A DNA stretch of 64,000 bases from Candidatus Berkelbacteria bacterium (GTDB lineage Bacteria; Patescibacteriota; UBA1384; XYA2-FULL-43-10; CAINNR01), in the NCBI GenBank assembly GCA_026397205.1, contig JAPLVH010000006.1, forward strand, positions 13,392 through 77,391, in the 5' to 3' direction. Shown here piece by piece: positions 4,088-58,095 of the stretch (position 1 is the first letter of the stretch; every line of letters begins with the position of its first letter). The notes under the pieces are model-generated. The model saw only the letters and a program-made list of their open reading frames with translations. It ran no database searches and was not told the DNA's origin. The translations under genes and the position numbers were made by a program.

Positions 4088-4109
4088 CTTAAGTGACTTA
4101 AGTGACTTA
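4088..4109. repeat. Operon-junction palindrome CTTAAGTGACTTAAG (two overlapping copies) 6 nt upstream of the mreD ATG.
   Basis: 'cttaagtgacttaagtgactta'. No Shine-Dalgarno between it and the ATG at 4115. The same palindrome recurs at 10.87, 13.90, 25.29 and 58.07 kb. Confidence 0.6.
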
Positions 4110-4114
4110 TAATT

Positions 4115-4618
4115 ATGTATCCATTTTTATTTTTCCTTGCCATCTTTTCCACACTACTCCAAACAACTTTGCTGCCATCGCTTTCAATTTACGGCGGAGT
4201 TTTTGAACTTTCACTGATCCTAGCATTGCTACTAATTTTCGGCGGCAATTTCCGCCAAGCGGCATTTTTTTCTTTGGCATCGGCACTTTTTTTGGCCCTT
4301 TTTTCCGGCGAAAGTTTCGGGATATTTTTACTGCCAATAATCGTTGTACTTGCCTGTCTCTATCTTTTTCACTACCGGCGAATCATCACCGGCCCAAGCA
4401 TTTATCTTTCAATCCCCTTTTTTTTCTTTGCTGTTGCCGTCGCCGAGATTGTTGAAATGCTCCTAGCAAAGCAATCGTCGCTGTCGTCGCTCCGACAAAT
4501 CGTCGCCTCCGGAGTTATTTCAACGGTTCTTGGCAGCATTCTCTATTACTTTCAGCGAAAAATCCAGCGATATTTGAATCCGCAAGTCGAACCGATTAGA
4601 GCAATTAATAGGAGCTAG
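4115..4618 (+). CDS. mreD: Rod shape-determining protein MreD (polytopic membrane protein)
   Basis: 167 aa, about five hydrophobic helices. Located between mreC and PBP2 as in the canonical mreBCD-mrdA arrangement. Confidence 0.55.
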   Translation: MYPFLFFLAIFSTLLQTTLLPSLSIYGGVFELSLILALLLIFGGNFRQAAFFSLASALFLALFSGESFGIFLLPIIVVLACLYLFHYRRIITGPSIYLSIPFFFFAVAVAEIVEMLLAKQSSLSSLRQIVASGVISTVLGSILYYFQRKIQRYLNPQVEPIRAINRS

Positions 4619-4620
4619 CA

Positions 4621-6552
4621 ATGGATTTTTTGGGCAACTTTTCCCGTCTTCCGGGCGACAGAAAAAAGCGCCAAGTCGAAGCAAGCGATGACGCTGATTT
4701 TCAATATCAAGATCTGACGCTTGAAGCCCAGGCAAAAATTTCTGATGAAGAAAATCAGCGAAGGCCGTTTCCGGTTTTGAAACTGATAATTTTCCTTCTT
4801 TTCGCTCTGCTTTTGACCCGGATTTTTTATCTTCAGGTTGTCGGCGCCGAAAAAAATCTCAATTTGGCCGTGGGAAACAGCGTTCGCCCGCGTGCGATAA
4901 TCTCCGGCCGTGGCGTCATCAGTGATGTAAACGGAGTTTGGCTGGCGCGCGATGTCCCGAGTTTTGTCCTTGGCGTTTATCCCTCCGACCTGCCGAAAAA
5001 AACTTCCGACCGCGAAGCCGAATACCAGAAGCTGGCGGCTTTGTCCGGCGTTTCCGCCGACGAGATTCGCCGTCGGGTTGATGCCTCCGGACTAACCTCA
5101 ATTCAATTGGAGATTATCAAGCCCGACCTTGGGCGCGAGGAGTCGCTGATTTTACAGGAGTCAACTTCCGGCATGCCGGGCGTTACCGTCTCCGCTCAAT
5201 CAATGCGCCAATATAAAAACGACTCCGGTTTGGCGGAAATTTTGGGCTACACCGGGCTGATTTCCACCGACGAACTTTCGACCGACCCCAATTATCTGAT
5301 GAACGAATACACCGGCAAGGCCGGACTGGAAAAAAGTTATCAGGGTGATTTGCGCGGGACACCGGGAATCGAAAAAGTCGAGGTTAATTCTCACGGCAAA
5401 GTTGCCCAAACTTTGAGCGATTCGTCAAACAAACTTCCAGTTGCCGGGAATAATTTGACTCTAAATATTGATTACAACTTGCAAAAAGTTATGTCCGACC
5501 AGCTGGCGGCCGGCATCGCCGGCTCGGGCACCGGCTCAACCGCCGGCACCGTTGTCGCGATGAATCCGCAAACCGGCGCTGTTTTGGGTATGGTGTCGCT
5601 CCCAAGTTATGACAATAATATCTTTGCTGGCAAAGTTGATTCAAGTGAATATCAGAAACTTTTAGCTGACCCAAACTTTCCGCTCCTAAATCGGGCAACA
5701 ATGGGAATTTATCCTTCGGGCTCAATAATTAAAATCGTTATGGCCGCCGCCGGCATTGACGCCGGCGTCATCACGCCATCAACAGCGATCGAAACGCCGG
5801 CGGAAATTGACATCGGCGATTACAAATTTCCCGACTGGAAATATCACACCGGCCTGACCGATGTCGAGCGGGCAATCGCCGAATCGAATGATATTTTTTT
5901 CTACGCCGTCGCCGGCGGTTATGACAAAATCAAAGGACTCGGCATTAGATTGATTGATAACTATCTCTCGCTTTTTGGTTTCGGCGAGAAAACCGGCATT
6001 GATCTGCCATCGGAGGCCGCCGGCTTGGTGCCGACGCCGGAGTGGAAGGAAAAAGTTCGCGGCGAACCGTGGTATCTCGGCGACAGCTACCACCTCGGCA
6101 TCGGCCAGGGCGACTTTTTGATCACGCCACTGCAAATGGTTCGGGCGGTTTGCGCCATCGCCAACGGCGGAAAATTAGTTGTGCCAGAGTTAGTAAAAAA
6201 TATCACCGACCAGAGCGAAAAAATTGTCCAAACGATGTCGCCAAAAACCCTGCGACAAAATTTTGTTTCGGCCGAAGCGATTGCAACATCGCAAGCCGGA
6301 ATGCGGCAAGCAGTGACTTCGGCATCCGGCTCCGGCCGACTTTTACAGAATTTACCGGTAACTTCGGCGGCAAAAACCGGCACTGCTCAATTTATGAACA
6401 ACCAAAAAGAGCACGCTTGGTTTGAGGCCTACGCGCCATACGAAAATCCGCAAATTGCCATTGTTGTGATGATTGAAGGCGGCGGCGAAGGTTATACCGC
6501 CGCCGGCCCTGTCGCTGATAATATTTTGCAGTACTATTTTTCCCAAAGGTAA
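4621..6552 (+). CDS. mrdA: Penicillin-binding protein 2 (peptidoglycan D,D-transpeptidase MrdA)
   Basis: N-terminal TM anchor; transpeptidase motifs SxxK ('SGSIIK'), SxN-like and 'KTGTAQ'. AGGAG RBS 7 nt before the ATG. Confidence 0.85.
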   Translation: MDFLGNFSRLPGDRKKRQVEASDDADFQYQDLTLEAQAKISDEENQRRPFPVLKLIIFLLFALLLTRIFYLQVVGAEKNLNLAVGNSVRPRAIISGRGVISDVNGVWLARDVPSFVLGVYPSDLPKKTSDREAEYQKLAALSGVSADEIRRRVDASGLTSIQLEIIKPDLGREESLILQESTSGMPGVTVSAQSMRQYKNDSGLAEILGYTGLISTDELSTDPNYLMNEYTGKAGLEKSYQGDLRGTPGIEKVEVNSHGKVAQTLSDSSNKLPVAGNNLTLNIDYNLQKVMSDQLAAGIAGSGTGSTAGTVVAMNPQTGAVLGMVSLPSYDNNIFAGKVDSSEYQKLLADPNFPLLNRATMGIYPSGSIIKIVMAAAGIDAGVITPSTAIETPAEIDIGDYKFPDWKYHTGLTDVERAIAESNDIFFYAVAGGYDKIKGLGIRLIDNYLSLFGFGEKTGIDLPSEAAGLVPTPEWKEKVRGEPWYLGDSYHLGIGQGDFLITPLQMVRAVCAIANGGKLVVPELVKNITDQSEKIVQTMSPKTLRQNFVSAEAIATSQAGMRQAVTSASGSGRLLQNLPVTSAAKTGTAQFMNNQKEHAWFEAYAPYENPQIAIVVMIEGGGEGYTAAGPVADNILQYYFSQR

Positions 6553-6558
6553 TTTTAT

Positions 6559-6601
6559 GTCATTGCGAGAAGTCAAGCAGTCGGCAAACGACGAAGCAAT
6601 C
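6559..6601. repeat. Partial copy of the GTCATTGCGAG...CGAAGCAATC palindromic repeat (left half only)
   Basis: 'gtcattgcgag-N22-cgaagcaatc'. Full copies are at 19084-19154 and 21602-21664. Confidence 0.5.
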
Positions 6602-6892
6602 TTGTTTTTGTCTGGCGGTTTTATTCCCTCCGACGCTCTGATCGGAATCCCAACATTCGCCGGCTGGCGAATCGTCGGGGCGTGTCAAAATCCATGTGCT
6701 TGCATTTTTTCCTTGACTTTTATTTCGCCATTTGATAAATTGATTTTGTTGTTCCAATCCGAAGGGAGCTGGTTGAAGATGCCGGCACGAAAAGTCAGAG
6801 TCAAAAAATAAAAGTCACCGGAGGATTCGACACCGAATTCGTTCAAGAACCGGCCAAAGGCCGAAGGTTCGTATCTTTGGCTAAAAATTCTA

Positions 6893-7087: not shown

Positions 7088-7180
7088 GCTCCAGCTTAAA
7101 AATTCCCCAAAATGCTTTTTATTTTCTGAATTTCGTGCTTATAATTCGGGAAAAATTAAGCTCCAGCTTATTTTTTCCCG
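7075..7180. repeat. Two tandem, near-identical 34-bp palindromes sharing the core TAAGCTCCAGCTTA. The first is followed by a T-rich tract and may act as a plus-strand terminator.
   Basis: 7075-7108 'ggggaatttttaagctCCagcttaaaaattcccc' is a perfect 16+2+16 palindrome. 7147-7180 'cgggaaaaattaagctCCagcttattttttcccg' has one mismatch. Confidence 0.6.
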
Positions 7181-7198
7181 AAAACAAATTCCAGAAAA

Positions 7199-8296: not shown

Positions 8297-9550
8297 TCAG
8301 CTTTCGATTATTCCGCCGCCCAAAACTTCGTCCCACTTCGCCCGACCAAAGCGGGCTTCGCGGGACGGGCTTCGCCCGTAAATCACCGCCGACTGGCCGG
8401 GTGTAATTGCTCGTTGTGGCTCGGCGAATATGACTTTGATGTTGTCGCTAGATCCTTCGACAAGCTCAGGATGACTTGTGATTTTACAAGTCACTTCCGA
8501 ATGCCGGTATCTGATTTTAACTGAAAGATTTGAATTCTGAATTATGAATTCTGAATTGTGAATAAAATTTAAACTATTGACAATCATTTCTTTTTTGAAC
8601 ACTTCATTGTTGCCGCCAACAATCAACTGATTTTTTTCTTGATTAAATCCAACAACATAAAGCGGTTTTTTATCTTTGATTTTTGATTTGTCATTTTGAT
8701 TTTTGATTTTTGATTTTTGATCTATTAACTTTCTCTGTCCAATCGTATAATTTAGCAAACCTTGATGCTGACCGACAACATTGCCTTCGATATCGACAAT
8801 TTCGCCCGGCAGAAAAAACTTTTCTGGCAAATACCGGCGCAAAAAGTTGCGGTAATCTTTGTCGGCAAAAAAACAGATTTCCTGACTCTCCGGCTTCTCT
8901 TTGACTGGCAAATTATATTTGATCGCCAATTTTCGGACATCGATTTTTTTCATCTCGCCTAGCGGAAATAAAATTTTCGCCAACTGATTTTGATTCAGCC
9001 GGTAAAGCATATATGACTGGTCTTTGGTTTCGTCAACGCCTTTCAACAAATGATATTCCTTTTTACTTTTTGATTTATCATTTTGATCTTTGATTTTTGA
9101 TCTTTGATTTATTCTGGCATAGTGTCCCGTCGCCAATTTTTCGCAACCGATTGCCAATGCTTTTTTCAGAAGCAAATCAAATTTTATTTTTTCGTTACAG
9201 ATAATGCAGGGATTTGGCGTCCGCAAATTTTGATATTCGGTCAAAAAATAATCTACGACAGCTTTTTTGAACTCGCTTTTGGCGTTTATAACATAAAATG
9301 GAATGTTTAATTTCGCCGCTACCGCCCGGGCATCTTCCAGCGCCTGATAATCGCAACAGTGGTTGTCGCGCCGACAAGTTTTGCCATCCGGGAATAAGGG
9401 ACTTGTCCCGCGAAGTCCGCCTTGGGCAGACGAAGTGGGATCGCTCCACAATTTCAAAAACAGCCCGACCAAGTCGTGCCCGTAATCCTTTAGGATTTTT
9501 GCCGCCACGGCGGAATCAACACCACCGGACAGGGCAATTGCTAATTTCAT
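8297..9550 (-). CDS. mnmA: tRNA-specific 2-thiouridylase MnmA, carrying two in-frame heptamer-repeat insertions
   Basis: 'MKLAIALSGGVDSAVAA' PP-loop, catalytic Cys motifs, 417 aa. Inserted peptides 'KSKIKDQNDKSKSKKEY' and 'DQKSKIKNQNDKSKIKDKK' are encoded by (TGATTTT)n tracts. Confidence 0.85.
   Translation of the reverse strand: MKLAIALSGGVDSAVAAKILKDYGHDLVGLFLKLWSDPTSSAQGGLRGTSPLFPDGKTCRRDNHCCDYQALEDARAVAAKLNIPFYVINAKSEFKKAVVDYFLTEYQNLRTPNPCIICNEKIKFDLLLKKALAIGCEKLATGHYARINQRSKIKDQNDKSKSKKEYHLLKGVDETKDQSYMLYRLNQNQLAKILFPLGEMKKIDVRKLAIKYNLPVKEKPESQEICFFADKDYRNFLRRYLPEKFFLPGEIVDIEGNVVGQHQGLLNYTIGQRKLIDQKSKIKNQNDKSKIKDKKPLYVVGFNQEKNQLIVGGNNEVFKKEMIVNSLNFIHNSEFIIQNSNLSVKIRYRHSEVTCKITSHPELVEGSSDNIKVIFAEPQRAITPGQSAVIYGRSPSREARFGRAKWDEVLGGGIIES
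8670..8725. repeat. (TGATTTT)n heptamer tract, in frame inside mnmA
   Basis: 'tatctttgatttttgatttgtcattttgatttttgatttttgatttttgatc'. Confidence 0.7.
9061..9112. repeat. (TGATTTT)n heptamer tract, in frame inside mnmA
   Basis: 'ttttactttttgatttatcattttgatctttgatttttgatctttgattt'. Confidence 0.7.
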
Positions 9551-9651
9551 AATTGAGAGTTAAGAATTCAGAATGCAGAATGTAATTTAGAATTGAGAAT
9601 TTTTCAAAACAAAATCCCCTTCCGCAATTCTAAATTCTGAGATCTTAATTC

Positions 9652-10443
9652 TTAATTGTTTCTACTAAATAATTCATTCCTTCGGACCATCGCAACCAAA
9701 AGTTCGTGCAAAATCGGCGTTCGAAGCTGAGTTTTATACTCGGAAAGTGCTTGAAATTTTGTATCTTCCTCCGATTGACTTAAAGATAATTTCTGCCAGT
9801 TGTGGTTACCATTTGCTAATCGTTTTGGCGGCGTCAAAAATTTATCTTCATGCAAACCAATTGGTCGCGGGTAAAAAGTCGAATGAACCAAATATGAATA
9901 GCCGCTGGCATTTTGGTAATTTGGCAAAAGATTTTTGACTGTTTGACCGATAAATTTGTGATCAGGATTTTGATCCGACGAATCGGGGTAGATAATTATC
10001 GTTGGCGAAAAATTATCAATCTGATTTTTCAACATCGCCGATAAGTCAGCGGCGGAAACTTTTTTTGCCAGATAAAATTCCGGCTGATTCAAAAAAACCA
10101 GGTCGGATGATGATAATCCTAAAATTTCCGCTACTTTTTGAAACTCCGCCCGGCGCTCGGCACCTAAACCGCGACGATTACCATCGGTAACCAGAACGAC
10201 TTCGACTTTGGCGCCAAGATTTTTTGCTTTGACGATAGCTCCACCGGTGGCGATCGTTTCGTCATCCGGGTGTGGTGAAAAAACTAAAACTCGGTCGGAA
10301 CTTTTTATCTGAATCTCCGCCATATTTTCGATCGACGATTGCGGCAAAACCGAATAAAAATGACGATAAACTAGGTAACCGGCAAGTGCCAAAATAGCAA
10401 CGCTGAAAACAATCCAGAGAAATTTTTTAGAAAGAAATTTCAT
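9652..10443 (-). CDS. PIG-L/LmbE family N-acetylglucosaminyl deacetylase, with N-terminal TM anchor
   Basis: 'VFSPHPDDETIATGG' signature of the LmbE-like (PIG-L) family; 263 aa. Confidence 0.7.
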   Translation of the reverse strand: MKFLSKKFLWIVFSVAILALAGYLVYRHFYSVLPQSSIENMAEIQIKSSDRVLVFSPHPDDETIATGGAIVKAKNLGAKVEVVLVTDGNRRGLGAERRAEFQKVAEILGLSSSDLVFLNQPEFYLAKKVSAADLSAMLKNQIDNFSPTIIIYPDSSDQNPDHKFIGQTVKNLLPNYQNASGYSYLVHSTFYPRPIGLHEDKFLTPPKRLANGNHNWQKLSLSQSEEDTKFQALSEYKTQLRTPILHELLVAMVRRNELFSRNN

Positions 10444-10865
10444 TTTTTAAGTATCTTAAGTTGCTTAATTTTCTTCCGATAATCTTTTATCGCTTTCCTC
10501 ACCCCCTCTTCGGCCAAAATTGAGCAGTGGTATTTTGCCGGCGGGAATTTGCCCATCTCGGCGGCGATCTGTTTTGATGTTAGCTTTAACGCTTCTTCAA
10601 GTGATTTACCTTTCACTAGTTCGGTCGCAATAGACGACGAAGCAATCGCCGCCCCACAGCCCAAGGTTTGGAATTTGATGTCGGAAATGTATTCTTCTGG
10701 CTTACCGCTTACTAGCTTACGACTTACGACTTTTATAAAAATTCGCATAACATCCCCGCAATTCGGATTGCCGACAGTTCCGACGCCGTCGGCACCTTTA
10801 ATCTCACCGAGATTTCTCGGGTTTCGAAAATGCTCCATTATTTTTTCACTATATAAATTTTCCAT
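10440..10865 (-). CDS. iscU: Fe-S cluster assembly scaffold IscU/NifU-like, with an internal heptamer-derived insertion
   Basis: Three conserved Cys: 'NPNCGD', 'LGCGAA', 'YHCS'. Insert 'KVVSRKLVSGKP' is encoded by a (GCTTAC)-type tract at 10701-10730. Confidence 0.8.
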   Translation of the reverse strand: MENLYSEKIMEHFRNPRNLGEIKGADGVGTVGNPNCGDVMRIFIKVVSRKLVSGKPEEYISDIKFQTLGCGAAIASSSIATELVKGKSLEEALKLTSKQIAAEMGKFPPAKYHCSILAEEGVRKAIKDYRKKIKQLKILKK

Positions 10866-10871
10866 CTTTAT

Positions 10872-10903
10872 TCTTAAAAATCTTAAGTGGCTTAAGTTAC
10901 TTA
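10872..10903. repeat. Operon-junction palindrome (CTTAAGTGGCTTAAG variant) between the iscS stop and the iscU start
   Basis: 'tcttaaaaatcttaagtggcttaagttac'. No Shine-Dalgarno before the iscU ATG. Confidence 0.55.
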
Positions 10904-12142
10904 TTTCATCGGTGACATATTTCTAAGTTTTTCGACGATTTTTGGCATTACTTCCAATACCTTACCAATTTCCGCCTTGGTTGTCGAGCGGCCGAGGGTG
11001 AAACGAATCGAGCCGTGACACTGCTCTGGGTGCAAACCCATCGAAATCAGGACATGAGACGGCTCAAGCGAGCCGGAGGTGCAAGCCGAACCGGTCGAGG
11101 CGGCAATATTTTCCATATCAAGATTCAATAAAATTGATTCGCCTTCGGCATTCAAAAAAGAGATGTTGACATTCGCCGGCGACCGAAACTCCCGGCTACC
11201 GTTCAAAAATGAATTTGGAATTTTCAAAAGTCCATCGATTAATCCGTTTCTTAAATTTTCAATTCCATTTTTATTATTTATTATTTTTGATTTATTATTT
11301 AAAATTTCCACCGCTTTCCCAAACCCAACAATTCCCGCAACATTCTCCGTCCCGGCTCGCTTTTTATACTCCTGTCCGCCACCAACAATTTGCTGTTTGA
11401 TTTCGACCCCGTCGCGAAGATATAAAAGTCCGACACCTTTGGGTCCGTAAATTTTGTGTGCCGACAGCGTCAAAAGATCAACATGCAAATAGTCAACATT
11501 CATTTCAAAATACTCCGCCGCCTGCACCGCATCAGTGTGAAAAAAAATCCTACCGATATTTTGATCTTTGATCTTTGATTTTTGATTTTGTTTTTCAATC
11601 ATTTTCCCGATTTCCCGAATTGGCTGAACCGTTCCGATTTCGTTGTTGACATACATAATTGAAACCAATACTGTGTTTTTTTTGATTGCCGCCTCGACGT
11701 CGGCAACTTCGATAATTCCGTCGCGATTCGGCTTAACATATGTCGCTTCAATTTTCCCCTCTTCCTCCAACTCCTTGACCGACTGCAGCACCGCATGATG
11801 TTCAAACACACTGGTGATAATATGTGGTTTTTGGTTTTCTTTTTCTATTTTTACTCTGTCATTTTGCATTTTGATTTTTGATATTTGATTTTCTATAATT
11901 CCTCTTATCGCCAAATTGTCGGATTCCGATCCACCCGAAGTGAAAATAATTTCCTCCGTTTTGCAATTCAAAAACTCGGCAATTTTTCGCCGCGCTTCAT
12001 CAACGGCAAAACGCGCTTCCTGGCCGAGACCGTGAATCGAGGACGGATTTCCAAACTTATCGCTAAAATATGGCAGCATCTTTTTCAGCACATTATCATC
12101 CACCAAAGTCGTAGCCGCGTGATCTAAATATATTTTTTTCAT
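10901..12142 (-). CDS. iscS: Cysteine desulfurase IscS/NifS, with two in-frame heptamer insertions. The likely start is M at 12142; the tool ORF extends to 12166 through repeat sequence.
   Basis: 'MKKIYLDHAATT', PLP-Lys motif 'SAHKIYGPKGVGLLY', C-terminal catalytic Cys 'SACTSGS'. Inserts 'QNQKSKIKDQNIG' and 'ISKIKMQNDRVKIEKENQ'. Confidence 0.85.
   Translation of the reverse strand: MKKIYLDHAATTLVDDNVLKKMLPYFSDKFGNPSSIHGLGQEARFAVDEARRKIAEFLNCKTEEIIFTSGGSESDNLAIRGIIENQISKIKMQNDRVKIEKENQKPHIITSVFEHHAVLQSVKELEEEGKIEATYVKPNRDGIIEVADVEAAIKKNTVLVSIMYVNNEIGTVQPIREIGKMIEKQNQKSKIKDQNIGRIFFHTDAVQAAEYFEMNVDYLHVDLLTLSAHKIYGPKGVGLLYLRDGVEIKQQIVGGGQEYKKRAGTENVAGIVGFGKAVEILNNKSKIINNKNGIENLRNGLIDGLLKIPNSFLNGSREFRSPANVNISFLNAEGESILLNLDMENIAASTGSACTSGSLEPSHVLISMGLHPEQCHGSIRFTLGRSTTKAEIGKVLEVMPKIVEKLRNMSPMK
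11558..11598. repeat. (TGATYTT)n heptamer tract, in frame inside iscS
   Basis: 'ttttgatctttgatctttgatttttgattttg'. Confidence 0.7.
11848..11895. repeat. Heptamer tract (GTCATTTTGCATTTTGATTTTTGATATTTGATTTTC), in frame inside iscS
   Basis: Same arm sequence as in the complete elements at 12.2, 23.2 and 26.0 kb. Confidence 0.7.
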
Positions 12143-12300
12143 AAGAAATAAAAAATAAAAAATCAAATATTAAAATGATAAATCAAAATTCAAAAAGGAT
12201 TTCTGGAATCTTTTTCTTTTTTACTCCGTCATTTTGCATTTTGATTTTTTCTAGCTTCAGCTGACCCTGCGGGGATATTTGCATTTGCAATCCTTCGCAA
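12142..12300. repeat. Complete heptamer-array mini-element: left arm (AAAATCA-like)n, central unique segment, right arm (TGATTTT)n, plus a GATAGCTGACCCTGCGGGGA-type module. It overlaps the iscS 5' end and the 3' end of the Phd-like ORF.
   Basis: 'aaaaatcaaatattaaaatgataaatcaaaattcaaaaagg ... ccgtcattttgcattttgattttttctagcttcagctgaccctgcggggatatttgc'. Confidence 0.65.
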
Positions 12301-13902: not shown

Positions 13903-13934
13903 CCTAAGTTGCTTAGGTGACTTAAGTGACTTAG
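13903..13934. repeat. Operon-junction palindrome (two copies, CCTAAGTTGCTTAGG + TGACTTAAGTGACTTAG) between the upstream gene stop and the tatD start
   Basis: 'cctaagttgcttaggtgacttaagtgacttag'. Confidence 0.6.
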
Positions 13935-13935
13935 A

Positions 13936-14775
13936 TTATCTAAAGAAGCTAACCCAAACCACCGTCGCGATTATGATTGCCGAGGCGATAATATCCCGTT
14001 TTTTCAGATTCTCCTTAAAGTAAAAGGCGGAAAAAAAGTAGACCAGGAGCGGACCCAAAACCAGAATGATCGTCGTTTCAACAACGCCAAGCCGGGCAAA
14101 GCCGTAAAATTTCAAAACCATTTGCACGACACCAAAAGCCGCCGACAAAATTATATAAGCAAAACAGCGTGCCGGCATTGCCAAAAGTTTCGGTCGCCAA
14201 AAGATTAGGAATATAATTGCCATCACCGAAGTTCGGGCAAAATAGAGCGACGCCGGTGAAAAAACGCCGAGAAGCATTTTAATAATGATTGATTCGAGCG
14301 ACATTAAAAGCATCGCTAGCACGATGACGCCGGTGTTACGGCTGATTTGCAGGTGATGATGGCGGAATCGTGAAGCGACCAAAACAATCGAAGCAATACC
14401 ACCGGCAATGAATAGCGGCAAATTCCGCTCATTTGGAAGAAAAATTTCGGAAAAAACGATGGTGAACAGCGGCGCCAAAAGCATTACCATTTCAAAATTG
14501 TGAATCTCCTCCGACTGAATTCCGCGATAATAAAACGAGTTCCAGGTGATGGCGACAATAATCATTGCCAAAAATAGCAAGATATATTTCGTCGTAAATA
14601 GTAACTGCCAGTTGACGACACCGAATTTCGGCAGAAGAAAGGCAGTGATAACTGCCAACCACAAAAAAAGTAGCGGCACAAATCGCTTGACCGGAATTTT
14701 ATAGCGGGAGAGGACAACCTTGTCAACAACCACCCCGCCGGCATAGCCAATTGCAGCGATGAATGATTCAATCAT
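13936..14775 (-). CDS. Polytopic membrane protein, possibly an EamA/DMT-type transporter
   Basis: 279 aa, about 9-10 hydrophobic helices in two halves. No diagnostic motif recognised. Confidence 0.35.
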   Translation of the reverse strand: MIESFIAAIGYAGGVVVDKVVLSRYKIPVKRFVPLLFLWLAVITAFLLPKFGVVNWQLLFTTKYILLFLAMIIVAITWNSFYYRGIQSEEIHNFEMVMLLAPLFTIVFSEIFLPNERNLPLFIAGGIASIVLVASRFRHHHLQISRNTGVIVLAMLLMSLESIIIKMLLGVFSPASLYFARTSVMAIIFLIFWRPKLLAMPARCFAYIILSAAFGVVQMVLKFYGFARLGVVETTIILVLGPLLVYFFSAFYFKENLKKRDIIASAIIIATVVWVSFFR

Positions 14776-14831
14776 AAAAGTTCAAAATTAAAAGTGAAAA
14801 GTGAAAAATTATAATTTAAAACTTGAAAATA

Positions 14832-17971: not shown

Positions 17972-18748
17972 TTAATTCTCAATTACATTCTGAGATCTTA
18001 ATTTTGAATTCTTAATTATCACCACAAATTCGCCTTTTATTTTATGATTTTTTAGGCCAGAAATGATGTCGGCAATTTTGCCGCTCCAATATTCTTCAAA
18101 CTTTTTTGTCATTTCGCGGGCGATGAATATCTCTGTGTCGGCGGCAAAAAAAACTGATATATCTTTCAGTGTCCGCTCGATTCTCTGTGCCGATTCGTAG
18201 ATAACGACCGGACATTTTAGTGCCGATAATTCTTTCAGTTTTGTCTGCCGACCTTTTTTCTTCGGCAAAAAACCGGCAAAGTAAAATTCTTTGTCAACAA
18301 TTCCCGAAACACTAACCGCCGCCGTCAACGCCGACGGTCCGGGAATTGGAATGATTTGGATTTCATTTCCATCATTTTGACTTTTGATTTTTGATTTTTG
18401 AATTAATTTCTGTCCCGGATCAGAAATTCCCGGCGTGCCATTATCGCTGACATAAGCCGCATTTTCACCATCACTTATCCGCCGAATCACCATTTCAATT
18501 TTCTCCTCCGACGAATGCCGGTGAAGTGAGATCAACTCTTTTTTGATTCCCATGTGATGTAAAAGTCCACCGGCAACTCGAGTATCTTCGCAAACAACAA
18601 AATCAACGGCTGATAAAATCTCAATCGCTCGTTTCGTTATATCGCCCAAATTCCCAATCGGCGTCGCCACAATGTAGAGTATCCCCTGTTTCATCTTGAC
18701 AAAAGTGTAGCATTTTTTTTCAAAATATGATAGTATCTGGAAAGACAA
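17972..18748 (-). CDS. rsmI: 16S rRNA (cytidine1402-2'-O)-methyltransferase RsmI, with an in-frame heptamer insertion
   Basis: 'ILYIVATPIGNLGDIT...EDTR' tetrapyrrole-methylase-fold RsmI signature. Insert 'KSKIKSQNDGNE'. Confidence 0.8.
   Translation of the reverse strand: MSFQILSYFEKKCYTFVKMKQGILYIVATPIGNLGDITKRAIEILSAVDFVVCEDTRVAGGLLHHMGIKKELISLHRHSSEEKIEMVIRRISDGENAAYVSDNGTPGISDPGQKLIQKSKIKSQNDGNEIQIIPIPGPSALTAAVSVSGIVDKEFYFAGFLPKKKGRQTKLKELSALKCPVVIYESAQRIERTLKDISVFFAADTEIFIAREMTKKFEEYWSGKIADIISGLKNHKIKGEFVVIIKNSKLRSQNVIEN
18369..18404. repeat. (TGATTTT)n heptamer tract, in frame inside rsmI
   Basis: 'ccatcattttgacttttgatttttgatttttgaat'. Confidence 0.7.
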
Positions 18749-21740: not shown

Positions 21741-22118
21741 ATGCCATTTGTGACCGTCAGGCATTCGAAATTCGTCGCAGTCCCAATATTCTTCACGAAT
21801 ATGCATCACGATTTGCCAAGAATTGTTGCCGATGCTTTGTCGTGTGGAGATGAAAACGGTTCCTTGTCTCCAAAAGACATAGAAATAAAGTTTGAAGCAC
21901 AGGGACCACACGATGTCGATAATTACGATGTTGAAATCCTTGTCACAGCAATGGATTTTCCGAGCCGGAAAGCAAACATACAAGAAAGAGCCGCGTTGAT
22001 TGCTGACAAACTATTGCCAAGAATTCCTCGTCTTGACGAAAAGTATCAGATTTGTGTATTCGTAACACTTTCACCGGCAGGTTTTGCCGAGCAAACTCGT
22101 ACTATACGAGAATCATAA
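21741..22118 (+). CDS. Hypothetical protein (125 aa). Begins Met-Pro; membership of the tautomerase superfamily is possible but unsupported.
   Basis: Promoter and RBS present. 'MPFVTVRH...'. No recognised motif. Confidence 0.4.
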   Translation: MPFVTVRHSKFVAVPIFFTNMHHDLPRIVADALSCGDENGSLSPKDIEIKFEAQGPHDVDNYDVEILVTAMDFPSRKANIQERAALIADKLLPRIPRLDEKYQICVFVTLSPAGFAEQTRTIRES

Positions 22119-23110: not shown

Positions 23111-23236
23111 ATTATTATATCAAATATCAAATATCAAAGATCAAAATGTTGGTCGGCACTCCGTGCTGAGATTTTTATATTCTTTTTACCTTTTTCATCT
23201 ATCATTTTGATTTTTGATATTTTATTTTTGATTTTT
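23111..23236. repeat. Complete heptamer-array mini-element (intergenic): (ATCAAAT/ATCAAAG)n arm, core TTGGTCGGCACTCCGTGCTGAGATTT, unique segment, inverted (TGATTTT)n arm
   Basis: 'tatcaaatatcaaatatcaaagatcaaaatgttggtcggcactccgtgctgagattttta...catctatcattttgatttttgatattttatttttgatttttcc'. Fills the whole gap between two minus-strand genes. Confidence 0.7.
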
Positions 23237-25284: not shown

Positions 25285-25323
25285 AAGTTGCTTAAGTTTC
25301 TTAAGTGACGTAAGTCACTTATT
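25285..25323. repeat. Operon-junction palindromes immediately upstream of the helicase start codon
   Basis: 'taagttgcttaagtttcttaagtgacgtaagtcacttat' includes AAGTGACgtaaGTCACTT. Confidence 0.55.
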
Positions 25324-25968: not shown

Positions 25969-26073
25969 TATCAAAAATCAAAATGTTGGTCGGCACTCCG
26001 TACCGGGATTTTATTTCTTTAGATATATTTTATTTGTCATTTTGATTTTTGATATTTGCTTTTTGATTTTCTT
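25969..26073. repeat. Complete heptamer-array mini-element (intergenic). The right arm runs into the promoter of the downstream gene.
   Basis: 'tcaaaaatcaaaatgttggtcggcactccgtaccgggattttatttctttagatatattttatttgtcattttgatttttgatatttgctttttgattttc'. Confidence 0.7.
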
Positions 26074-27576: not shown

Positions 27577-27615
27577 CAATTAACCTAATTGACCTAATTA
27601 TTCTAATTAACCTAA
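27577..27615. repeat. Tandem 9-mer array (TAATTRNYC)x4 upstream of the four-helix-bundle gene
   Basis: 'caattaacc taattgacc taattattc taattaacc taa'. Confidence 0.55.
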
Positions 27616-27618
27616 AAA

Positions 27619-27987
27619 ATGCCAGAAGCTCCAAGCCACAAAAGAAAATATGATCTCGAGGAAAGAACGGCGGCCTTTGGAGAAAATGTTATTCGACTTC
27701 TGAAGAAAATTGAAGATAACAGTATCACCAAGCCAATCAAAACCCAACTTACGAAATGCGCAACGAGTGTCGGAGCTAATTATTGTGAAGCTGATGACGC
27801 TGAAAATCCGCAAGATTTTAAACATAAAATCGGCATTTGCAAGAAAGAATCTAGGGAGTCGAAACACTTTCTTCGCATGCTGGCAGTCGCAACTCCCAAA
27901 CTGAAGGATGAGATTCCAATCCTCTGGCAAGAAGCCAAGGAATTAAACTTGATATTCAACACAATTTATCGCTCAGTGAAAAAATAG
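27619..27987 (+). CDS. Four-helix-bundle protein of the 23S rRNA intervening-sequence / DGR Avd-like family (TIGR02436-like)
   Basis: 'SVGANYCEADDAENPQDFKHKIGICKKESRESKHFLRMLA' fits the family pattern (S.GANiaEg...DFi.kl.ia.kE..ET.yWL). 122 aa. Confidence 0.5.
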   Translation: MPEAPSHKRKYDLEERTAAFGENVIRLLKKIEDNSITKPIKTQLTKCATSVGANYCEADDAENPQDFKHKIGICKKESRESKHFLRMLAVATPKLKDEIPILWQEAKELNLIFNTIYRSVKK

Positions 27988-28024
27988 ATTTCTTTTTGGG
28001 GCTTTGGTTATTGGTATTTGTTTA

Positions 28025-28060
28025 GAATAATTAGTATAATTAGAACAATTAGAATAATTT
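28025..28060. repeat. Inverted 9-mer array (GWAYAATTA)x4 downstream of the four-helix-bundle gene
   Basis: 'gaataatta gtataatta gaacaatta gaataattt' is the reverse-complement orientation of the upstream TAATTNNNC array. Confidence 0.55.
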
Positions 28061-56096: not shown

Positions 56097-56106
56097 TTCT
56101 CAATAA

Positions 56107-56736
56107 TTATTTTTTAGCTGAAACAAAAAGATATTGCGCCAATGATTTAATCACTGGGCTGTTCAAACCACGATTTGCCCTCCCTCTAAGACCAAACCAA
56201 AATGACTCAACACCGACTTCTCTAAAGTTGATTTTTTGGAATAAAATTTTTAGTTCTCCCGAAATGTACTCTCGCAAATGTATAACTTCCCCCAACCGAC
56301 TATCTTCGGACAAAACATACGGATATCTAACTGGTTTTCCAGCAATTTTCATCAACATATTGGAAAAACGAGTTCTGTTTGGGGTTGCCAAAAAAACTTC
56401 ACCATTTTTTTTAAGGACACGATGAATTTCATTCAAAAAAAATAAATCATTTTCGACGTGTTCAATCACATCAAAACTCACAACGACATCAAATTCTTGA
56501 TTCGTGAATGGCAATTTTTTGCCGTCATATTTTATAAAATCGAACTTCTTAACAAATTTTTTCTGCCGAAAATCGTTAATGTCAACTCCAATAACCTCAT
56601 TTCGATCATGAGAAAACATCGAAGTATAATCTCCAGTTCCGCAACCAACATCTAAAATTCTTCTGCCCTTGACTTGATCGGCAAATCTTTTGATTTTATT
56701 TTCGTAGGCAACCATACATTTATCTTTTTTGATCAT
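56107..56736 (-). CDS. Class I SAM-dependent methyltransferase. Likely start M at 56736; the tool ORF extends to 56859 and overlaps the upstream GT2.
   Basis: Motif I 'ILDVGCGTGDYTSMF', motif II 'FDVVVSFDVIEHV'. Confidence 0.6.
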   Translation of the reverse strand: MIKKDKCMVAYENKIKRFADQVKGRRILDVGCGTGDYTSMFSHDRNEVIGVDINDFRQKKFVKKFDFIKYDGKKLPFTNQEFDVVVSFDVIEHVENDLFFLNEIHRVLKKNGEVFLATPNRTRFSNMLMKIAGKPVRYPYVLSEDSRLGEVIHLREYISGELKILFQKINFREVGVESFWFGLRGRANRGLNSPVIKSLAQYLFVSAKK

Positions 56737-56749
56737 CAGGGTGCTTTTC

Positions 56750-57646
56750 TTAATTTCTTTTTCGCATAATAAATTTGACGCCGACCGAAAATCGCAGATA
56801 AAACATTCCAGCGGATAAAATCGGATGAGCCAGAAGTTTTTTCCACTTTCCATTTTCAATAAAAACGGCGAAGTAGCGGTATTTCAAACCGAGTTGACGA
56901 CAGATGTCCGGATCATTTTTTCCCCACTTTTTAATATAAGTATCAAAACTTCCGGCGTAATAACTTTTTTTTGCCAGATATTTTTTTAAATTGAATTCTG
57001 CTTCGTTGTGGTAAATAACTGGGCCAAAATTCTCCGGATAAACTCCGCGTAAACTAATAAATTTTGACATTTTCCATTTTGATATTTTGTCACCAGCATA
57101 TAATAAACCGATTTTGCCGATCTTTTTCATTTTTTTGTCAATGTCCCAATCCTCCGGGCCAGACATTGATTCATCAAACCCGCCGGCTTTAACGAATTTT
57201 TCTTTGCCAAAAAATCTGGCGCCATCAATCACCGTTCCATTATAAAAAGTCCGCTCAAATCGTCGAACTCGGCTCCAAAAGTTTTTTCCAAGAACAATCT
57301 CTGGGATGTGAAGTGCGACAAAAATTTTTTTTGACATTAATTCGACGCAATTGGCGATCAAATTCGGCGCTAAAATCATGTCGCAATCAATAAACATTAC
57401 ATATTTGCCAGCCGACTTTTCGATCATACCGTAATTTCTCTGCGCCGATCGCTCCGGTCCTTTATTATAAACTTTTCTGGTATATTTCATGGCGATCTCT
57501 TTTGTTCGATCGGTCGAGCCGTTGTCAACCAAAATAATTTCGATCGGCTCGTATGTCTGGGCCAAAATTGACTTCATGACATTATCAACATTTTTTGCCT
57601 CGTTTTTGGTCGTGATGACTAAACTGACGAGCGGGTTATTTTTCAT
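56750..57646 (-). CDS. GT2 family glycosyltransferase
   Basis: 'LVSLVITTKNEAKNV...IEIILVDNGSTDRT', 'FIDCDMIL'. Confidence 0.7.
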   Translation of the reverse strand: MKNNPLVSLVITTKNEAKNVDNVMKSILAQTYEPIEIILVDNGSTDRTKEIAMKYTRKVYNKGPERSAQRNYGMIEKSAGKYVMFIDCDMILAPNLIANCVELMSKKIFVALHIPEIVLGKNFWSRVRRFERTFYNGTVIDGARFFGKEKFVKAGGFDESMSGPEDWDIDKKMKKIGKIGLLYAGDKISKWKMSKFISLRGVYPENFGPVIYHNEAEFNLKKYLAKKSYYAGSFDTYIKKWGKNDPDICRQLGLKYRYFAVFIENGKWKKLLAHPILSAGMFYLRFSVGVKFIMRKRN

Positions 57647-58073
57647 TTTTTATCCAAAGTTTTTTATGGTCGAAGTTTTTGGCGATGCGAAAAGTTAAAA
57701 AATATGTCGGCCAGACGGCGCCATTGCAGAAAGTATCATAGAAAAGATGAAATAAATTGGCAAAACCAAGCGAGAAAAACAGCCAACCAAGATTCGGAAA
57801 GATCAAACTGAGCACAATCAGAATTATCGCAAATTCGAAACCGTGAAAAAAAACATAAACTTTTCCCGAATCGTCAAAATGTTTACCGGAAAAAAAATCG
57901 TTTATGTTGAATTTCCAGCCACGATGAATAAAATAGTCAATCAGGTGGTCAGCGTCGAGAAAAAAACCGGAGGCTATGGCCAGCGGAACCGCCCAAAAAT
58001 TGCCAGTTAATTTTCCAACAACCAAACCGATTGCAACTGACAAAACGAAATGAATAAATTCGTCAATAAACAT
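57636..58073 (-). CDS. Small polytopic membrane protein (DUF457/YdjM-like membrane-bound metal-dependent hydrolase candidate)
   Basis: 145 aa, 4 TM helices, conserved His/Asp 'DADHLIDYFIH'. Weak. Confidence 0.3.
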   Translation of the reverse strand: MFIDEFIHFVLSVAIGLVVGKLTGNFWAVPLAIASGFFLDADHLIDYFIHRGWKFNINDFFSGKHFDDSGKVYVFFHGFEFAIILIVLSLIFPNLGWLFFSLGFANLFHLFYDTFCNGAVWPTYFLTFRIAKNFDHKKLWIKNEK

Positions 58074-58095
58074 CTTAAGCTTCTTAAGCGACTTA
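58074..58095. repeat. Operon-junction palindrome (CTTAAGCTTCTTAAG variant) between the rSAM stop and the downstream start
   Basis: 'cttaagcttcttaagcgactta'. Confidence 0.55.

What the first reader, a model, noticed from the sequence alone, without database searches (positions are those of the whole stretch)
4088..58095. 15-bp palindrome CTTAAGTGACTTAAG recurs immediately upstream of start codons at gene junctions lacking a Shine-Dalgarno
Five intergenic junctions carry one to three copies of the perfect or near-perfect palindrome CTTAAG-T-G-ACTTAAG. Each lies within 1-40 nt of the downstream gene's ATG. None of these five junctions has a recognisable SD. Other genes in the window do use GGAGG-type SDs, for example mrdA, greA and the ORF at 21741.

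- 4088-4109, before mreD.
- 10872-10903, before iscU.
- 13903-13934, before tatD.
- 25285-25323, before the helicase.
- 58074-58095, before the 145-aa membrane protein.

This position and orientation-independent palindromy suggests a site for a protein or RNase, such as RNase III-type processing of polycistronic mRNA. Alternatively it could be an SD-independent translation-initiation enhancer. A third possibility is yet another small palindromic repeat family that targets gene boundaries.
Basis: seen in the sequence. Interest (0 to 1): 0.7.

Follow-up and report, generated by a model that had tools for sequence, protein, structure and literature searches.

The report
Palindromic 9-base repeat arrays between genes
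The recurring CTTAAG motif is real, but it is a short selfish tandem-repeat element that fills the gaps between genes in this candidate-phyla-radiation bacterium, not a signal for starting translation.

Summary
The motif is real: 13 hits with at most 2 mismatches against 0.05 expected. It is a 9-nt tandem repeat (unit ACTTAAGT+N, 2-4 copies), not a 15-bp site. It sits at six gene junctions, not five. It abuts the downstream ATG (0-7 nt) and, at the four plain co-directional junctions, spans the whole stop-to-start gap.

The window comes from a Candidatus Berkelbacteria MAG (CPR).

The link to start codons and missing SDs does not hold:
- About 80% of the window's genes lack an SD anyway.
- Of 84 such arrays from other CPR-type genomes, 42% lie in frame inside genes. 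Some lie between convergent stop codons, and one sits in a 16S rRNA gene. There is no orientation bias.
- At the orthologous IscS-IscU and EamA-TatD junctions, relatives carry a plain SD spacer, other 7/9-nt arrays, or an inserted four-helix-bundle (S23p/PF05635) gene.

Arrays of this kind form the inverted arms of an S23p cassette in the window (27578-28059) and of ORF-less hairpin elements at other junctions. One third of the CPR CTTAAG arrays touch an S23p-type gene.

Best reading: a compact, palindromic-unit member of an IVS-like, short-tandem-repeat selfish element class that colonises gene boundaries. RNase III cleavage is plausible only for its long-armed relatives.

The parts
4088..4111 (+). 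CTTAAG nonamer array (CTTAAGTGA x2 + CTTATA) between the mreC stop (4075-4077) and the mreD ATG (4115). It is the core of an extended imperfect palindrome, ACATAA...TTATGT, at about 4072-4118.
   Evidence: The RNA fold is -13.4 kcal/mol with z = -3.35. The array is identical in 3 other assemblies.
10446..10469 (-). It encodes the C-terminal tail KIKQLKILKK* of IscU.
   Evidence: Relatives' IscU proteins end without this tail or with heptamer-coded tails.
10873..10904 (-). Array filling the iscS-iscU spacer. The iscS stop (10901-10903) lies in the terminal half-unit ACTTAT. The iscU ATG is at 10865-10863.
   Evidence: The orthologous junction in relatives is 'TAAGGAGTTTT ATG' or holds other repeat units.
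13903..13935 (-). Array of 3-4 units filling the EamA-tatD spacer. The EamA stop is at 13936-13938 and the tatD ATG at 13896-13894.
   Evidence: The orthologous junction is an 11-nt plain spacer in L203 and holds an inserted PF05635 gene in L205.
25285..25323 (-). Array of 4 units abutting the uvrD-type helicase start. The ATG at 25284-25282 replaces the AAG of the last core (ACTT|ATG).
   Evidence: A weak sigma-70-like match just upstream would place the array in the 5' UTR.
58074..58097 (-). Array of 2-3 units forming the whole 19-nt spacer between the radical-SAM gene stop (58093-58095, inside ACTTAT) and the ATG (58073-58071) of the 145-aa ORF.
27578..28059 (+). Context, same element class: an IVS-like cassette. 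A 122-aa four-helix-bundle/S23p ORF (27619-27987, PF05635) is bracketed by 42-nt inverted arms (27578-27619 and 28018-28059). Each arm is made of four nonamers with core CTAATT.
   Evidence: PF05635, E = 1e-9, 39 bits against a cutoff of 33.8. (arms 81% complementary). (the arms pair in the MFE fold; duplex -23.8 kcal/mol).
3101..3276 (+). Context, same element class: an ORF-less hairpin element at the mreB-mreC junction. It consists of inverted heptamer arrays, (TCTAAAT)n - loop - (GTTTAGA)n.
   Evidence: The fold is -45.6 kcal/mol with z = -5.6. Similar elements lie at 9560-9655, 12157-12250, 23119-23232 and 61215-61349.

Best explanation
The CTTAAG arrays are compact copies of a selfish, palindromic short-tandem-repeat element class that has invaded this Berkelbacteria genome and many other CPR genomes.

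**What the element is**
- The unit is an 8-bp palindrome plus one free base (ACTTAAGT-N), usually 3-4 units (27-36 nt).
- Modules of this kind, with genome- or copy-specific 7- or 9-nt units, form two other structures: the terminal inverted arms of IVS-like cassettes that carry a four-helix-bundle (S23p, PF05635/TIGR02436) gene, and ORF-less hairpin elements.
- Because the CTTAAG unit is itself palindromic, a single array is its own inverted repeat. The element therefore shrinks to one short block.

**Shown**
- Such blocks sit wherever they are tolerated: in intercistronic spacers, at convergent gene ends, in frame inside proteins (9 nt = 3 codons), and even in a 16S rRNA gene.
- In the compact operons of this window, a block inserted into a spacer necessarily touches both the upstream stop and the downstream ATG. 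Its own TAA and a mutated core (CTTAAG to CTTATG) often supply those codons.

**Inferred**
- They arrive by insertion, or by recombination or collapse between the two arms of a cassette, leaving a solo arm.
- They replaced ancestral SD-bearing spacers such as TAAGGAGTTTT.
- The downstream genes are then translated by the SD-independent route that about 80% of this genome's genes already use: A/U-rich, weakly structured leaders and/or re-initiation after the adjacent stop.
- The array has no sequence-specific role in initiation.
For: **Repeat nature and significance**

**The same unit is widespread in CPR MAGs**
- It is frequent in Gottesman-, Davies-, Levy-, Chisholm-, Amesbacteria, Berkelbacteria and other CPR MAGs.

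**Distribution of 84 arrays in 63 CPR-type loci**
- 35 (42%) lie inside long ORFs as in-frame LKx/LSx repeats. Hosts include a P-type ATPase, GT2, GH1 and argininosuccinate lyase.
- Clean convergent stop/stop cases occur at L009 458-490, L056 2549-2581 and L020 3156-3188.
- Junction arrays lie as close to the upstream stop (typically -5, 0 or +4 nt) as to the downstream start.
- Spacer orientation relative to the gene is 15 forward, 11 reverse and 32 symmetric.
- One array lies inside a 16S rRNA gene and is predicted to form a hairpin on its own.

**Not conserved at orthologous junctions**
- The IscS-IscU junction carries an SD spacer in 6 relatives, heptamer arrays in 3 and AATTAG nonamers in 1.
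- There are no CTTAAG arrays in 325 kb of IscU loci.
- The EamA-TatD junction is an 11-nt spacer in L203, a PF05635 gene flanked by inverted heptamer arrays in L205, and the CTTAAG array in the window.

**Link to S23p cassettes**
- 28 of 84 arrays lie in or within 60 nt of a four-helix-bundle gene, against 2.5% of bases (p about 6e-24).
- The array unit co-varies between the interior and the flanks of each gene copy.
- The window's own cassette is at 27578-28059.
- Other cassettes are bracketed in the same way.
- ORF-less hairpin versions exist.

**Published precedent**
- The Coxiella IVS has an S23p ORF, a 28-bp terminal inverted stem, and tandem heptamers of strain-variable copy number just before the ATG (PMC4990558).

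**SD background**
- Only 10 of 51 genes in the window have an SD.
Against: - Within the window, all six arrays are upstream of a start and none lies at one of the roughly 7 convergent junctions. With 0.7 expected, this is not significant.
- The array at uvrD sits exactly at the ATG, although about 770 nt of non-coding DNA was available.
- In roughly 40% of start-adjacent CPR arrays, the ATG falls in the same phase of the unit (ACTT|ATG). This could reflect selection at the start codon.
- No transposase, target-site duplication or other mobility mechanism was identified.
- The derivation of solo arrays from cassettes is inferred from association and shared architecture. It was not observed as a presence/absence pair with the same unit.
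- The taxonomic labels of 17 'uncultured Gammaproteobacteria' loci were not verified.
Confidence: 0.6

Rival explanations
1. SD-independent translation signal or post-transcriptional operator. The array RNA recruits ribosomes (via S1 or standby binding) or binds an RNA-binding regulator (Csp/CsrA-like), as proposed for TAACTGA repeats in Beggiatoaceae.
For: - All six window arrays end 0-7 nt before an ATG and lack an SD.
- Leaders are 67-80% A+T.
- The ATG is embedded in the last unit in many CPR cases.
- Essential genes (iscU, mreD) lost an ancestral SD yet keep the array, so the arrays are at least compatible with initiation.
- There is precedent in PMC4679880.
Against: - 42% of CPR arrays lie inside ORFs; some lie between convergent stops and one inside a 16S rRNA gene.
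- There is no orientation bias.
- The arrays are not conserved at orthologous starts and are interchangeable with unrelated units or with a plain SD.
- SD absence is the genome background.
- The mreD array is predicted to sequester its own ATG in a -13.4 kcal/mol hairpin.
- Anti-SD duplexes are only -1.5 to -3.8 kcal/mol.
- The 16S tail of an array-bearing organism is canonical.
Confidence: 0.15
2. RNase III (or another dsRNA endonuclease) processing site that cuts polycistronic mRNAs at gene boundaries.
For: - The units are self-complementary.
- The mreD site forms a 19-pair imperfect hairpin spanning stop to start.
- The two arrays flanking iscU could pair over 22 bp in four segments, at -15.7 kcal/mol.
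- Long-armed relatives in the window form 40-50 nt stems, like the IVS stems that RNase III is shown to cut (PMC4990558).
Against: - The longest uninterrupted helices in the six leaders are 4-8 bp, and two leaders fold no better than shuffles. RNase III substrates normally need about two helical turns (established knowledge).
- There is no conserved structure and no covariation.
- Arrays also occur in DNA that is coding or lies between convergent genes.
Confidence: 0.1
3. Ordinary slippage-generated microsatellites (LSSR/STRR type) that arise locally and independently, unrelated to S23p cassettes.
For: - The window and its relatives carry 3-4 period-7 arrays per 10 kb, with many different units.
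- Self-complementary tandem units favour slipped-strand mispairing (inference).
- Arrays in relatives differ in unit from locus to locus.
Against: - The same 9-nt unit recurs at six unlinked loci here and in many CPR lineages. Independent slippage does not predict this.
- Array length peaks at 4 units rather than decaying geometrically.
- There is strong enrichment at four-helix-bundle genes, with unit co-variation.
- The arrays are organised as paired inverted arms.
Confidence: 0.12
4. DNA-level binding or modification sites. The tandem ACTTAAGT palindromes are operators for a dimeric DNA-binding protein, or clustered targets of a CTTAAG (AflII-type) methyltransferase or restriction system.
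For: - The core is a perfect 6-8 bp palindrome and is orientation-independent.
- Only 2 CTTAAG hexamers lie outside arrays, against about 7 expected for the whole window.
Against: - The 9-bp spacing is out of helical phase.
- Arrays occur inside ORFs and in rRNA.
- Sister arrays with non-palindromic units occupy the same kinds of sites.
- No candidate protein was identified in the window.
Confidence: 0.03

Closest known systems
TAACTGA heptamer direct repeats of marine Beggiatoaceae, some Cyanobacteria and Bacteroidetes (MacGregor 2015, PMC4679880)
   Same: - Short tandem direct repeats, 2-6 copies, dispersed at many loci.
- In BOGUAY they mostly lie within a few nt upstream of start codons that lack an RBS. 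Some overlap upstream stop codons and some lie inside ORFs.
- The genome background of SD use is about 25%.
- The function is unproven.
   Different: - The unit here is 9 nt with a palindromic core, so no forward or reverse orientation exists and in-frame coding insertion is easy.
- The host is CPR.
- Cross-genome data here show no start-codon specificity.
- Here the arrays are tied to inverted-arm cassettes carrying S23p genes. That paper does not mention this (no occurrence of 'four helix' or 'intervening sequence').
23S rRNA intervening sequences (IVS) carrying an S23p/PF05635 ORF (Coxiella, Leptospira, Salmonella; PMC4990558)
   Same: - A selfish element with terminal inverted repeats forming a long stem.
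- A four-helix-bundle S23p ORF in the loop.
- Tandem heptamers of strain-variable copy number immediately upstream of the ORF's ATG.
- The window cassette 27578-28059 has exactly this layout.
   Different: - The elements lie between, or inside, protein-coding genes, not in 23S helix 25/45.
- The arms are built entirely of 7- or 9-nt tandem units.
- The six CTTAAG arrays carry no ORF and form only 4-8 bp uninterrupted helices.
- RNase III excision is untested here.
Cyanobacterial STRR heptamers and 'long simple sequence repeats' with 5-11-nt units (Mazel 1990; Mrazek 2007, as summarised in PMC4679880). The G-rich heptamer repeats of Xanthomonas/Nostoc (PMC4692102) belong to the same kind.
   Same: - Dispersed tandem repeats of 7-9-nt units, mostly non-coding, with a sporadic phylogenetic distribution.
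- Units whose length is a multiple of three are tolerated in coding regions.
   Different: - The arrays here are short (about 30-36 nt, mode 4 units).
- They are self-complementary.
- They fill whole intercistronic spacers.
- They are associated with S23p cassettes.
Miniature palindromic elements at gene boundaries (REP/REPIN, Correia/NEMIS) — recalled from general knowledge. REPINs also appeared (PMC3116915).
   Same: Small, ORF-less, hairpin-forming, intergenic, and lineage-specific in presence or absence. Correia elements are reported to be RNase III substrates (own knowledge, not checked here).
   Different: - Those elements have a fixed unique sequence of 35-150 nt and a known or suspected transposase (RAYT, IS-derived).
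- The present elements are made of tandem 7/9-nt units, and no transposase was found.
Tandem repeats of Borg elements (PMC9879509; abstract only)
   Same: Rapidly evolving tandem direct repeats that occur both between genes and in frame within genes, where they create low-complexity protein segments.
   Different: Borg repeats arise independently with locus-specific units in an archaeal extrachromosomal element. Here one unit recurs across loci and across phyla of CPR bacteria.

Membership tests
Dispersed short tandem repeats (LSSR / STRR / TAACTGA type) | Head-to-tail direct repeats of a 5-11-nt unit | tested here: met
   TRF reports period 9 and 2.4-2.6 copies at 4088, 10447, 10882, 13912, 25284 and 58074. 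Chains of cores at 9-nt spacing are confirmed.
Dispersed short tandem repeats (LSSR / STRR / TAACTGA type) | The same unit at many unlinked loci, far above chance | tested here: met
   Six arrays in 64 kb against 0.175 in shuffles.
Dispersed short tandem repeats (LSSR / STRR / TAACTGA type) | BOGUAY-type behaviour: oriented toward, and specific to, nearby start codons | tested here: not met
   The window sites are start-proximal. Across CPR loci, however, 42% of arrays are in ORFs, convergent cases exist, and orientation is 15 forward against 11 reverse.
IVS-like S23p elements | Element-borne ORF of the S23p / four-helix-bundle family (PF05635, TIGR02436) | tested here: not met
   None of the six CTTAAG arrays contains an ORF. 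The feature is met for the neighbouring cassette 27619-27987 and for 16 genes next to CTTAAG arrays in CPR loci.
IVS-like S23p elements | Terminal inverted repeats able to form a long stem (28 bp in Coxiella) | tested here: inconclusive
   The CTTAAG arrays are self-complementary, but their uninterrupted helices are only 4-8 bp. The mreD site reaches 19 pairs with bulges. The cassette at 27578/28018 and the ORF-less elements have 42-50-nt arms.
IVS-like S23p elements | Located in 23S rRNA helix 25 or 45 | tested here: not met
   All sites lie between or within protein-coding genes. There is no rRNA in the window. One CTTAAG array does lie in a 16S rRNA gene, in L006.
IVS-like S23p elements | Excision from the transcript by RNase III | not testable with these tools
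   This needs end-mapping or an in-vitro cleavage assay.
Shine-Dalgarno or rRNA-complementary initiation element | Base-pairing with the 3' tail of 16S rRNA | tested here: not met
   Duplex with GAUCACCUCCUUUCU is -1.5 to -3.8 kcal/mol for array leaders, against -6.5 to -11.8 for SD genes. The 16S 3' end of an array-bearing genome is canonical (L006). The organism's own 16S was not available.
Shine-Dalgarno or rRNA-complementary initiation element | Conserved presence at orthologous start codons | tested here: not met
   The IscS-IscU and EamA-TatD junctions of relatives lack the array.
RNase III processing site | About 20 bp or more of largely continuous dsRNA | tested here: not met
   Two of the six leaders fold no better than shuffled sequence.
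Phase-variation (contingency) SSR | Copy-number polymorphism between strains, with an association with surface or virulence genes | tested here: inconclusive
   Three independent contigs are identical but appear to be the same strain. The downstream genes are housekeeping (mreD, iscU, tatD, uvrD), which argues against this family.
MITE / REP-type miniature elements | Conserved unique sequence with terminal inverted repeats and target-site duplication, plus a cognate transposase | tested here: not met
   Flanks of the six arrays share no similarity beyond chance. No transposase was seen near the arrays. Target-site duplications were not examined systematically.

The most novel reading that the evidence does not exclude
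All the 7- and 9-nt arrays, including the CTTAAG ones, may be the arm modules of one still-active class of IVS-like mobile elements. The four-helix-bundle (S23p/Avd-like) protein would be the element-encoded factor.
- The elements would colonise gene junctions, protein loops and rRNA helices across the CPR.
- They would be tolerated because the paired arms are removed or neutralised at the RNA level (RNase III excision, as in 23S IVS) or read through in frame.
- Solo CTTAAG arrays would be collapsed cassettes.
- Because the palindromic ends read ATAAG...CTTATG, each copy could supply a stop codon for the upstream gene and a start codon for the downstream gene, in either orientation.
Probability: 0.2. 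Interest if true: 0.8.

Novelty: new variant of a known kind. Interest (0 to 1): 0.55.

Why it matters
- **For annotation.** In CPR genomes, tandem 7/9-nt blocks before start codons should not be read as ribosome-binding or regulatory motifs. The LKx/LSx low-complexity stretches and odd C-terminal tails in conserved proteins, and extra hairpins in rRNA, can come from the same repeat invasion.
- **For biology.** The data tie two long-standing orphans together: dispersed heptamer/nonamer repeats (STRR, TAACTGA, LSSR) and the functionless S23p 'four-helix-bundle' genes of rRNA intervening sequences. They suggest both belong to one element type that also lives outside rRNA. That makes both problems testable, by presence/absence polymorphism, RNase III mapping, and binding of S23p to the arrays.
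- **For translation.** Essential genes in these reduced genomes tolerate wholesale replacement of an SD spacer. This bears on how CPR bacteria initiate translation.

Tried and rejected
- **Known RNA families and tRNAs in the window:** none found.
- **AT-rich tail of a larger repeat:** rejected. The 80-nt flanks of the six arrays are no more similar than random window pairs.
- **Anti-SD complementarity (UAAG against the CUUA tail):** only 3-4 bp and weak duplexes. The array-bearing L006 has a canonical tail...CCUCCUUUCU.
- **SD contrast:** rejected as evidence, because only 10 of 51 genes have an SD.
- **First positional test:** asking whether any ORF of at least 80 aa starts within 30 nt of an array was uninformative. 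The random control scored 0.35-0.43 because of in-frame internal starts. It was replaced by the flank-ORF classification.
- **Source genome in genome contigs:** not among the returned loci. MreD has no homologue other than itself among 5.8 billion proteins, so MreD could not be used for synteny. IscU and TatD were used instead.
- **Strain-level copy-number variation:** the three contigs found are 100% identical over 2 kb, so they give no information.
- **Literature:** no paper in the searchable library links CPR/Patescibacteria to such repeats, or S23p genes to dispersed tandem repeats.
- **First search for a four-helix-bundle gene in the window:** a tblastn with the 190-aa 'suffix-domain' form found nothing. 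The shorter classical form at 27619-27987 was found only by Pfam.

Full report
**1. Observation**

- The pattern CTTAAGTGACTTAAG with up to two mismatches occurs 13 times (both strands), at the five places named. Shuffled sequence gives 0.05.
- Reading the sites and running Tandem Repeats Finder shows that the '15-bp palindrome' is two units of a 9-nt head-to-tail repeat, with 2-4 units per site.
- The conserved part is (A)CTTAAG(T). The remaining bases vary.
- A search for chains of CTTAAG-like cores spaced 9 nt apart finds six arrays, against 0.175 in shuffles.
- The sixth array, 10446-10469, lies directly before the PIG-L-family ORF and inside the last ten codons of iscU.
- Ten of the twelve exact CTTAAG hexamers in the window are in these arrays.
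- The neighbouring ORFs are real genes: MreC, NifU_N/IscU, class-V aminotransferase/IscS, TatD, EamA, UvrD helicase and radical SAM.
- At the four plain co-directional junctions the array spans the whole gap.
  - The TAA stops of iscS and of the radical-SAM gene lie inside the terminal half-unit ACTTAT.
  - The EamA stop abuts the array.
  - At uvrD the ATG replaces the AAG of the last core.
- The mreD array is identical in three independent assemblies, so it is not an assembly artefact.

**2. Source organism**

- MreD and TatD match NCBI MAG proteins labelled Candidatus Berkelbacteria.
- The window is therefore from a CPR/Patescibacteria genome.

**3. The SD argument**

- I scored the 20 nt before each start against a canonical anti-SD tail.
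- Only 10 of 51 genes reach -6.5 kcal/mol or better. The array leaders score -1.5 to -3.8.

**4. The CTTAAG arrays are one family among many**

- TRF lists dozens of 7-nt and some 9-nt arrays.
- The 70 nt upstream of about twenty genes consist of such arrays, with units such as TTTTGAT, AATTTCT, TTAGAGN, AATTAACCT and TTAGAATAA, in either orientation.
- Period-7 arrays occur at 3-4 per 10 kb in the window and in close relatives, against 0.8 per 10 kb in more distant IscU loci.
- Heptamer arrays also sit in frame inside housekeeping proteins, giving insertions such as NQKSKIKNQND.

**5. Cross-genome distribution**

- The hits are dominated by CPR lineages (Gottesman-, Davies-, Levy-, Shapiro-, Chisholm-, Roizman-, Amesbacteria, Berkelbacteria, Saccharibacteria, Parcubacteria). 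There were a few long arrays in soda-lake Bacteroidales, Nostocales and others.
- Many arrays abut an ATG. An unbiased classification of the 84 arrays in the 63 CPR-type loci shows more:
  - 35 (42%) lie inside long ORFs.
  - Junction arrays lie as close to the upstream stop (typically -5, 0 or +4 nt, the TAA often being the array's own) as to the downstream start.
  - There are clean convergent stop/stop cases at L009 458-490, L056 2549-2581 and L020 3156-3188.
- The in-ORF arrays sit in genuine genes: a P-type ATPase, three orthologous GT2 enzymes at the same position, GH1, argininosuccinate lyase and membrane proteins. There they encode LKx/LSx repeats.
- The three spacer bases are mostly T-N-A, so the unit is the palindrome ACTTAAGT plus one base.
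- Where the spacer is asymmetric, its orientation relative to the adjacent gene is 15 forward against 11 reverse.
- One array lies inside a 16S rRNA gene and is predicted to form a hairpin on its own (L006). That gene's 3' end is the canonical GGATCACCTCCTTTCT.
- Array length peaks at four units.

**6. Orthologous junctions**

IscS-IscU junction, from IscU relatives fetched from metagenomes:
- Five close relatives (75-81% identity), and later L203, have 'TAAGGAGTTTT ATG', that is, an SD in a minimal spacer.
- Others have heptamer arrays of unrelated units (L125, L133, L137) or AATTAG nonamers (L135).
- Several IscU C-termini carry heptamer-coded tails.
- No CTTAAG array occurs in 325 kb of these loci.

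EamA-TatD junction, from syntenic contigs found through TatD homologues:
- L203 has an 11-nt plain spacer.
- The window has the 39-nt CTTAAG array.
- L205 has an inserted 120-aa PF05635 gene flanked by inverted heptamer arrays.
- L202 has the same upstream array plus another ORF.

The arrays are therefore lineage-specific insertions that replaced an SD-bearing spacer. They are not conserved signals.

**7. Link to S23p / four-helix-bundle cassettes**

- Sixteen genes of a roughly 190-aa family (TIGR02436 + TIGR04258; weak PF05635) lie at CTTAAG arrays in the CPR loci. Arrays sit upstream, at one or two fixed internal positions, and at the C-terminus.
- 28 of 84 arrays are in or within 60 nt of such a gene, which covers 2.5% of the bases (binomial p about 6e-24).
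- In two copies with other units (L045 1460-2059; L062 2612-3175), the internal repeat and the flanks share that other unit.
- Prompted by this, I scanned small ORFs of the window. ORF 27619-27987 is a PF05635 protein.
  - It is bracketed by 42-nt inverted arms, 81% complementary.
  - Each arm is four nonamers with core CTAATT.
  - The arms pair in the MFE fold.
- Further PF05635 genes in L136, L022 and L205 are bracketed in the same way.
- ORF-less versions, made of an array, a loop and an inverted array, occupy other junctions:
  - In the window: 3101-3276, 9560-9655, 12157-12250, 23119-23232 and 61215-61349. The element spanning 3095-3282 folds at -45.6 kcal/mol with z = -5.6.
  - In L204.
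- This is the published architecture of the 23S rRNA intervening sequence of Coxiella:
  - an S23p ORF;
  - 28-bp terminal inverted repeats cut by RNase III;
  - tandem heptamers of strain-variable number just before the ATG (PMC4990558).

**8. Structure tests on the CTTAAG leaders**

- MFE values range from -2.3 to -13.4 kcal/mol and z-scores from +0.13 to -3.35. The longest uninterrupted helices are 4-8 bp.
- Only the mreD site forms a sizeable (19-pair, bulged) hairpin. It would bury its own start codon.
- The two arrays flanking iscU could pair at -15.7 kcal/mol, against -23.8 for the S23p arms.
- RNase III cleavage of these short arrays is therefore not supported. It remains a reasonable analogy for the long-armed elements.

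**9. Interpretation**

- The CTTAAG arrays are best explained as the compact form of this element class. The form is compact because the unit is itself palindromic.
- Their position 'immediately upstream of start codons' follows from insertion into, or collapse within, very short intercistronic spacers.
- Translation of the downstream genes then relies on the SD-independent mode that most genes of this genome already use.

Steps shown:
- the repeat nature of the motif;
- its distribution;
- its non-conservation at orthologous junctions;
- its association with, and shared architecture with, S23p cassettes.

Steps inferred:
- derivation of solo arrays from cassettes;
- the mode of spread;
- neutrality for initiation.

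Caveats:
- The comparison loci were selected by the motif and the scan was truncated.
- Taxonomy labels of some MAGs are unverified.
- No mobility enzyme was found.
- The recurrent ACTT|ATG phase at starts is unexplained.

**10. Comparison with the literature**

- The closest analogue for the architecture is the S23p IVS (PMC4990558).
- I found no paper linking the two, or describing such arrays in CPR bacteria. This does not prove that none exists.

Noticed in passing
window 27578-28059: An IVS-like cassette lies between two protein-coding genes. A 122-aa PF05635 (S23p/four-helix-bundle) ORF is bracketed by 42-nt inverted arms, each made of four nonamers (core CTAATT). The downstream gene keeps a GGAGG right after the 3' arm.
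   Followed up: yes
window 3101-3276; 9560-9655; 12157-12250; 23119-23232; 61215-61349: ORF-less hairpin elements at gene junctions, built from a heptamer array, a 10-80-nt loop and the inverted array. The element at the mreB-mreC junction folds at -45.6 kcal/mol (z = -5.6) and its 3' arm contains the mreC start.
   Followed up: partly
window 8666-8721 and 9068-9110 (MnmA); 11270-11301, 11560-11590 and 11860-11892 (IscS); 18375-18401 (RsmI-like); 24137-24167 and 25028-25057 (UvrD); 59104-59131 (radical SAM): (AAAATCA)n heptamer arrays are inserted in frame in conserved housekeeping proteins. They give low-complexity insertions such as NQKSKIKNQND. In UvrD, two insertions share the longer string NQKSKIKNQNDGSHSVA.
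   Followed up: partly
window 23148-23168, 25985-26005, 61256-61276 (minus strand): Three copies of a 21-nt GC-rich hairpin motif, CGGCACGGAGTGCCGACCAAC, against 0 expected. Each is followed by TTTTGAT-type heptamers and lies in the loop or at the edge of the heptamer hairpin elements. This is possibly a terminator-like module or a separate small repeat.
   Followed up: partly
window 25907-25878 (-) and 25744-25727 (-): A perfect sigma-70 consensus promoter (TTGACA-18-TATAAT, 12/12) is followed about 130 nt downstream by a terminator-like hairpin. Both lie in the 770-nt non-coding stretch upstream of uvrD. This is a possible small RNA. It has no Rfam match.
   Followed up: no
L006 1412-1444 (16S rRNA gene at 721-2247, minus strand): A four-unit CTTAAG array lies inside a full-length bacterial 16S rRNA gene. 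Folded on its own, the stretch containing it forms a hairpin of -25.7 kcal/mol. The repeat has therefore also invaded rRNA.
   Followed up: partly
L023 2443-5820 (LeuRS) and L023 5873-6445: The Chisholmbacteria LeuRS carries several other in-frame 9-nt repeats (EVQKVQKVQEVQ, GTRGTRGTR, GDKGNKGDK, SEYSEDSED). The adjacent four-helix-bundle gene has CTTAAG arrays before it, twice inside it, and at its C-terminus.
   Followed up: partly
L031 3213-3245, L035 2159-2191, L058 5154-5177: Three orthologous GT2 glycosyltransferases from different Gottesmanbacteria carry a CTTAAG array at the same position (…LT-LLSHLSNLSYLS-G…). Some in-ORF arrays therefore persist across species or recur at the same site.
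   Followed up: no
window 10440-10470 compared with L202, L203 and L205: folD lies directly downstream of iscU in three syntenic relatives (before PIG-L in L202 and L205, before mnmA in L203). It is absent in the window and in L204. The window's sixth CTTAAG array sits exactly at this breakpoint, and L204 has an inverted-heptamer hairpin element there.
   Followed up: partly
L204 about 5950-5997 and window 14776-14830: The same heptamer unit (CTTTTCA/ACTTTTC) precedes tatD in L204 but precedes the EamA gene in the window. The same unit thus sits at different junctions in related genomes, which is consistent with mobility.
   Followed up: no
window, whole: Outside the six arrays, CTTAAG occurs only twice (50378 and 52160). 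A second-order Markov model expects about 7 occurrences for the whole window. This possible avoidance of the free hexamer was not tested further.
   Followed up: no
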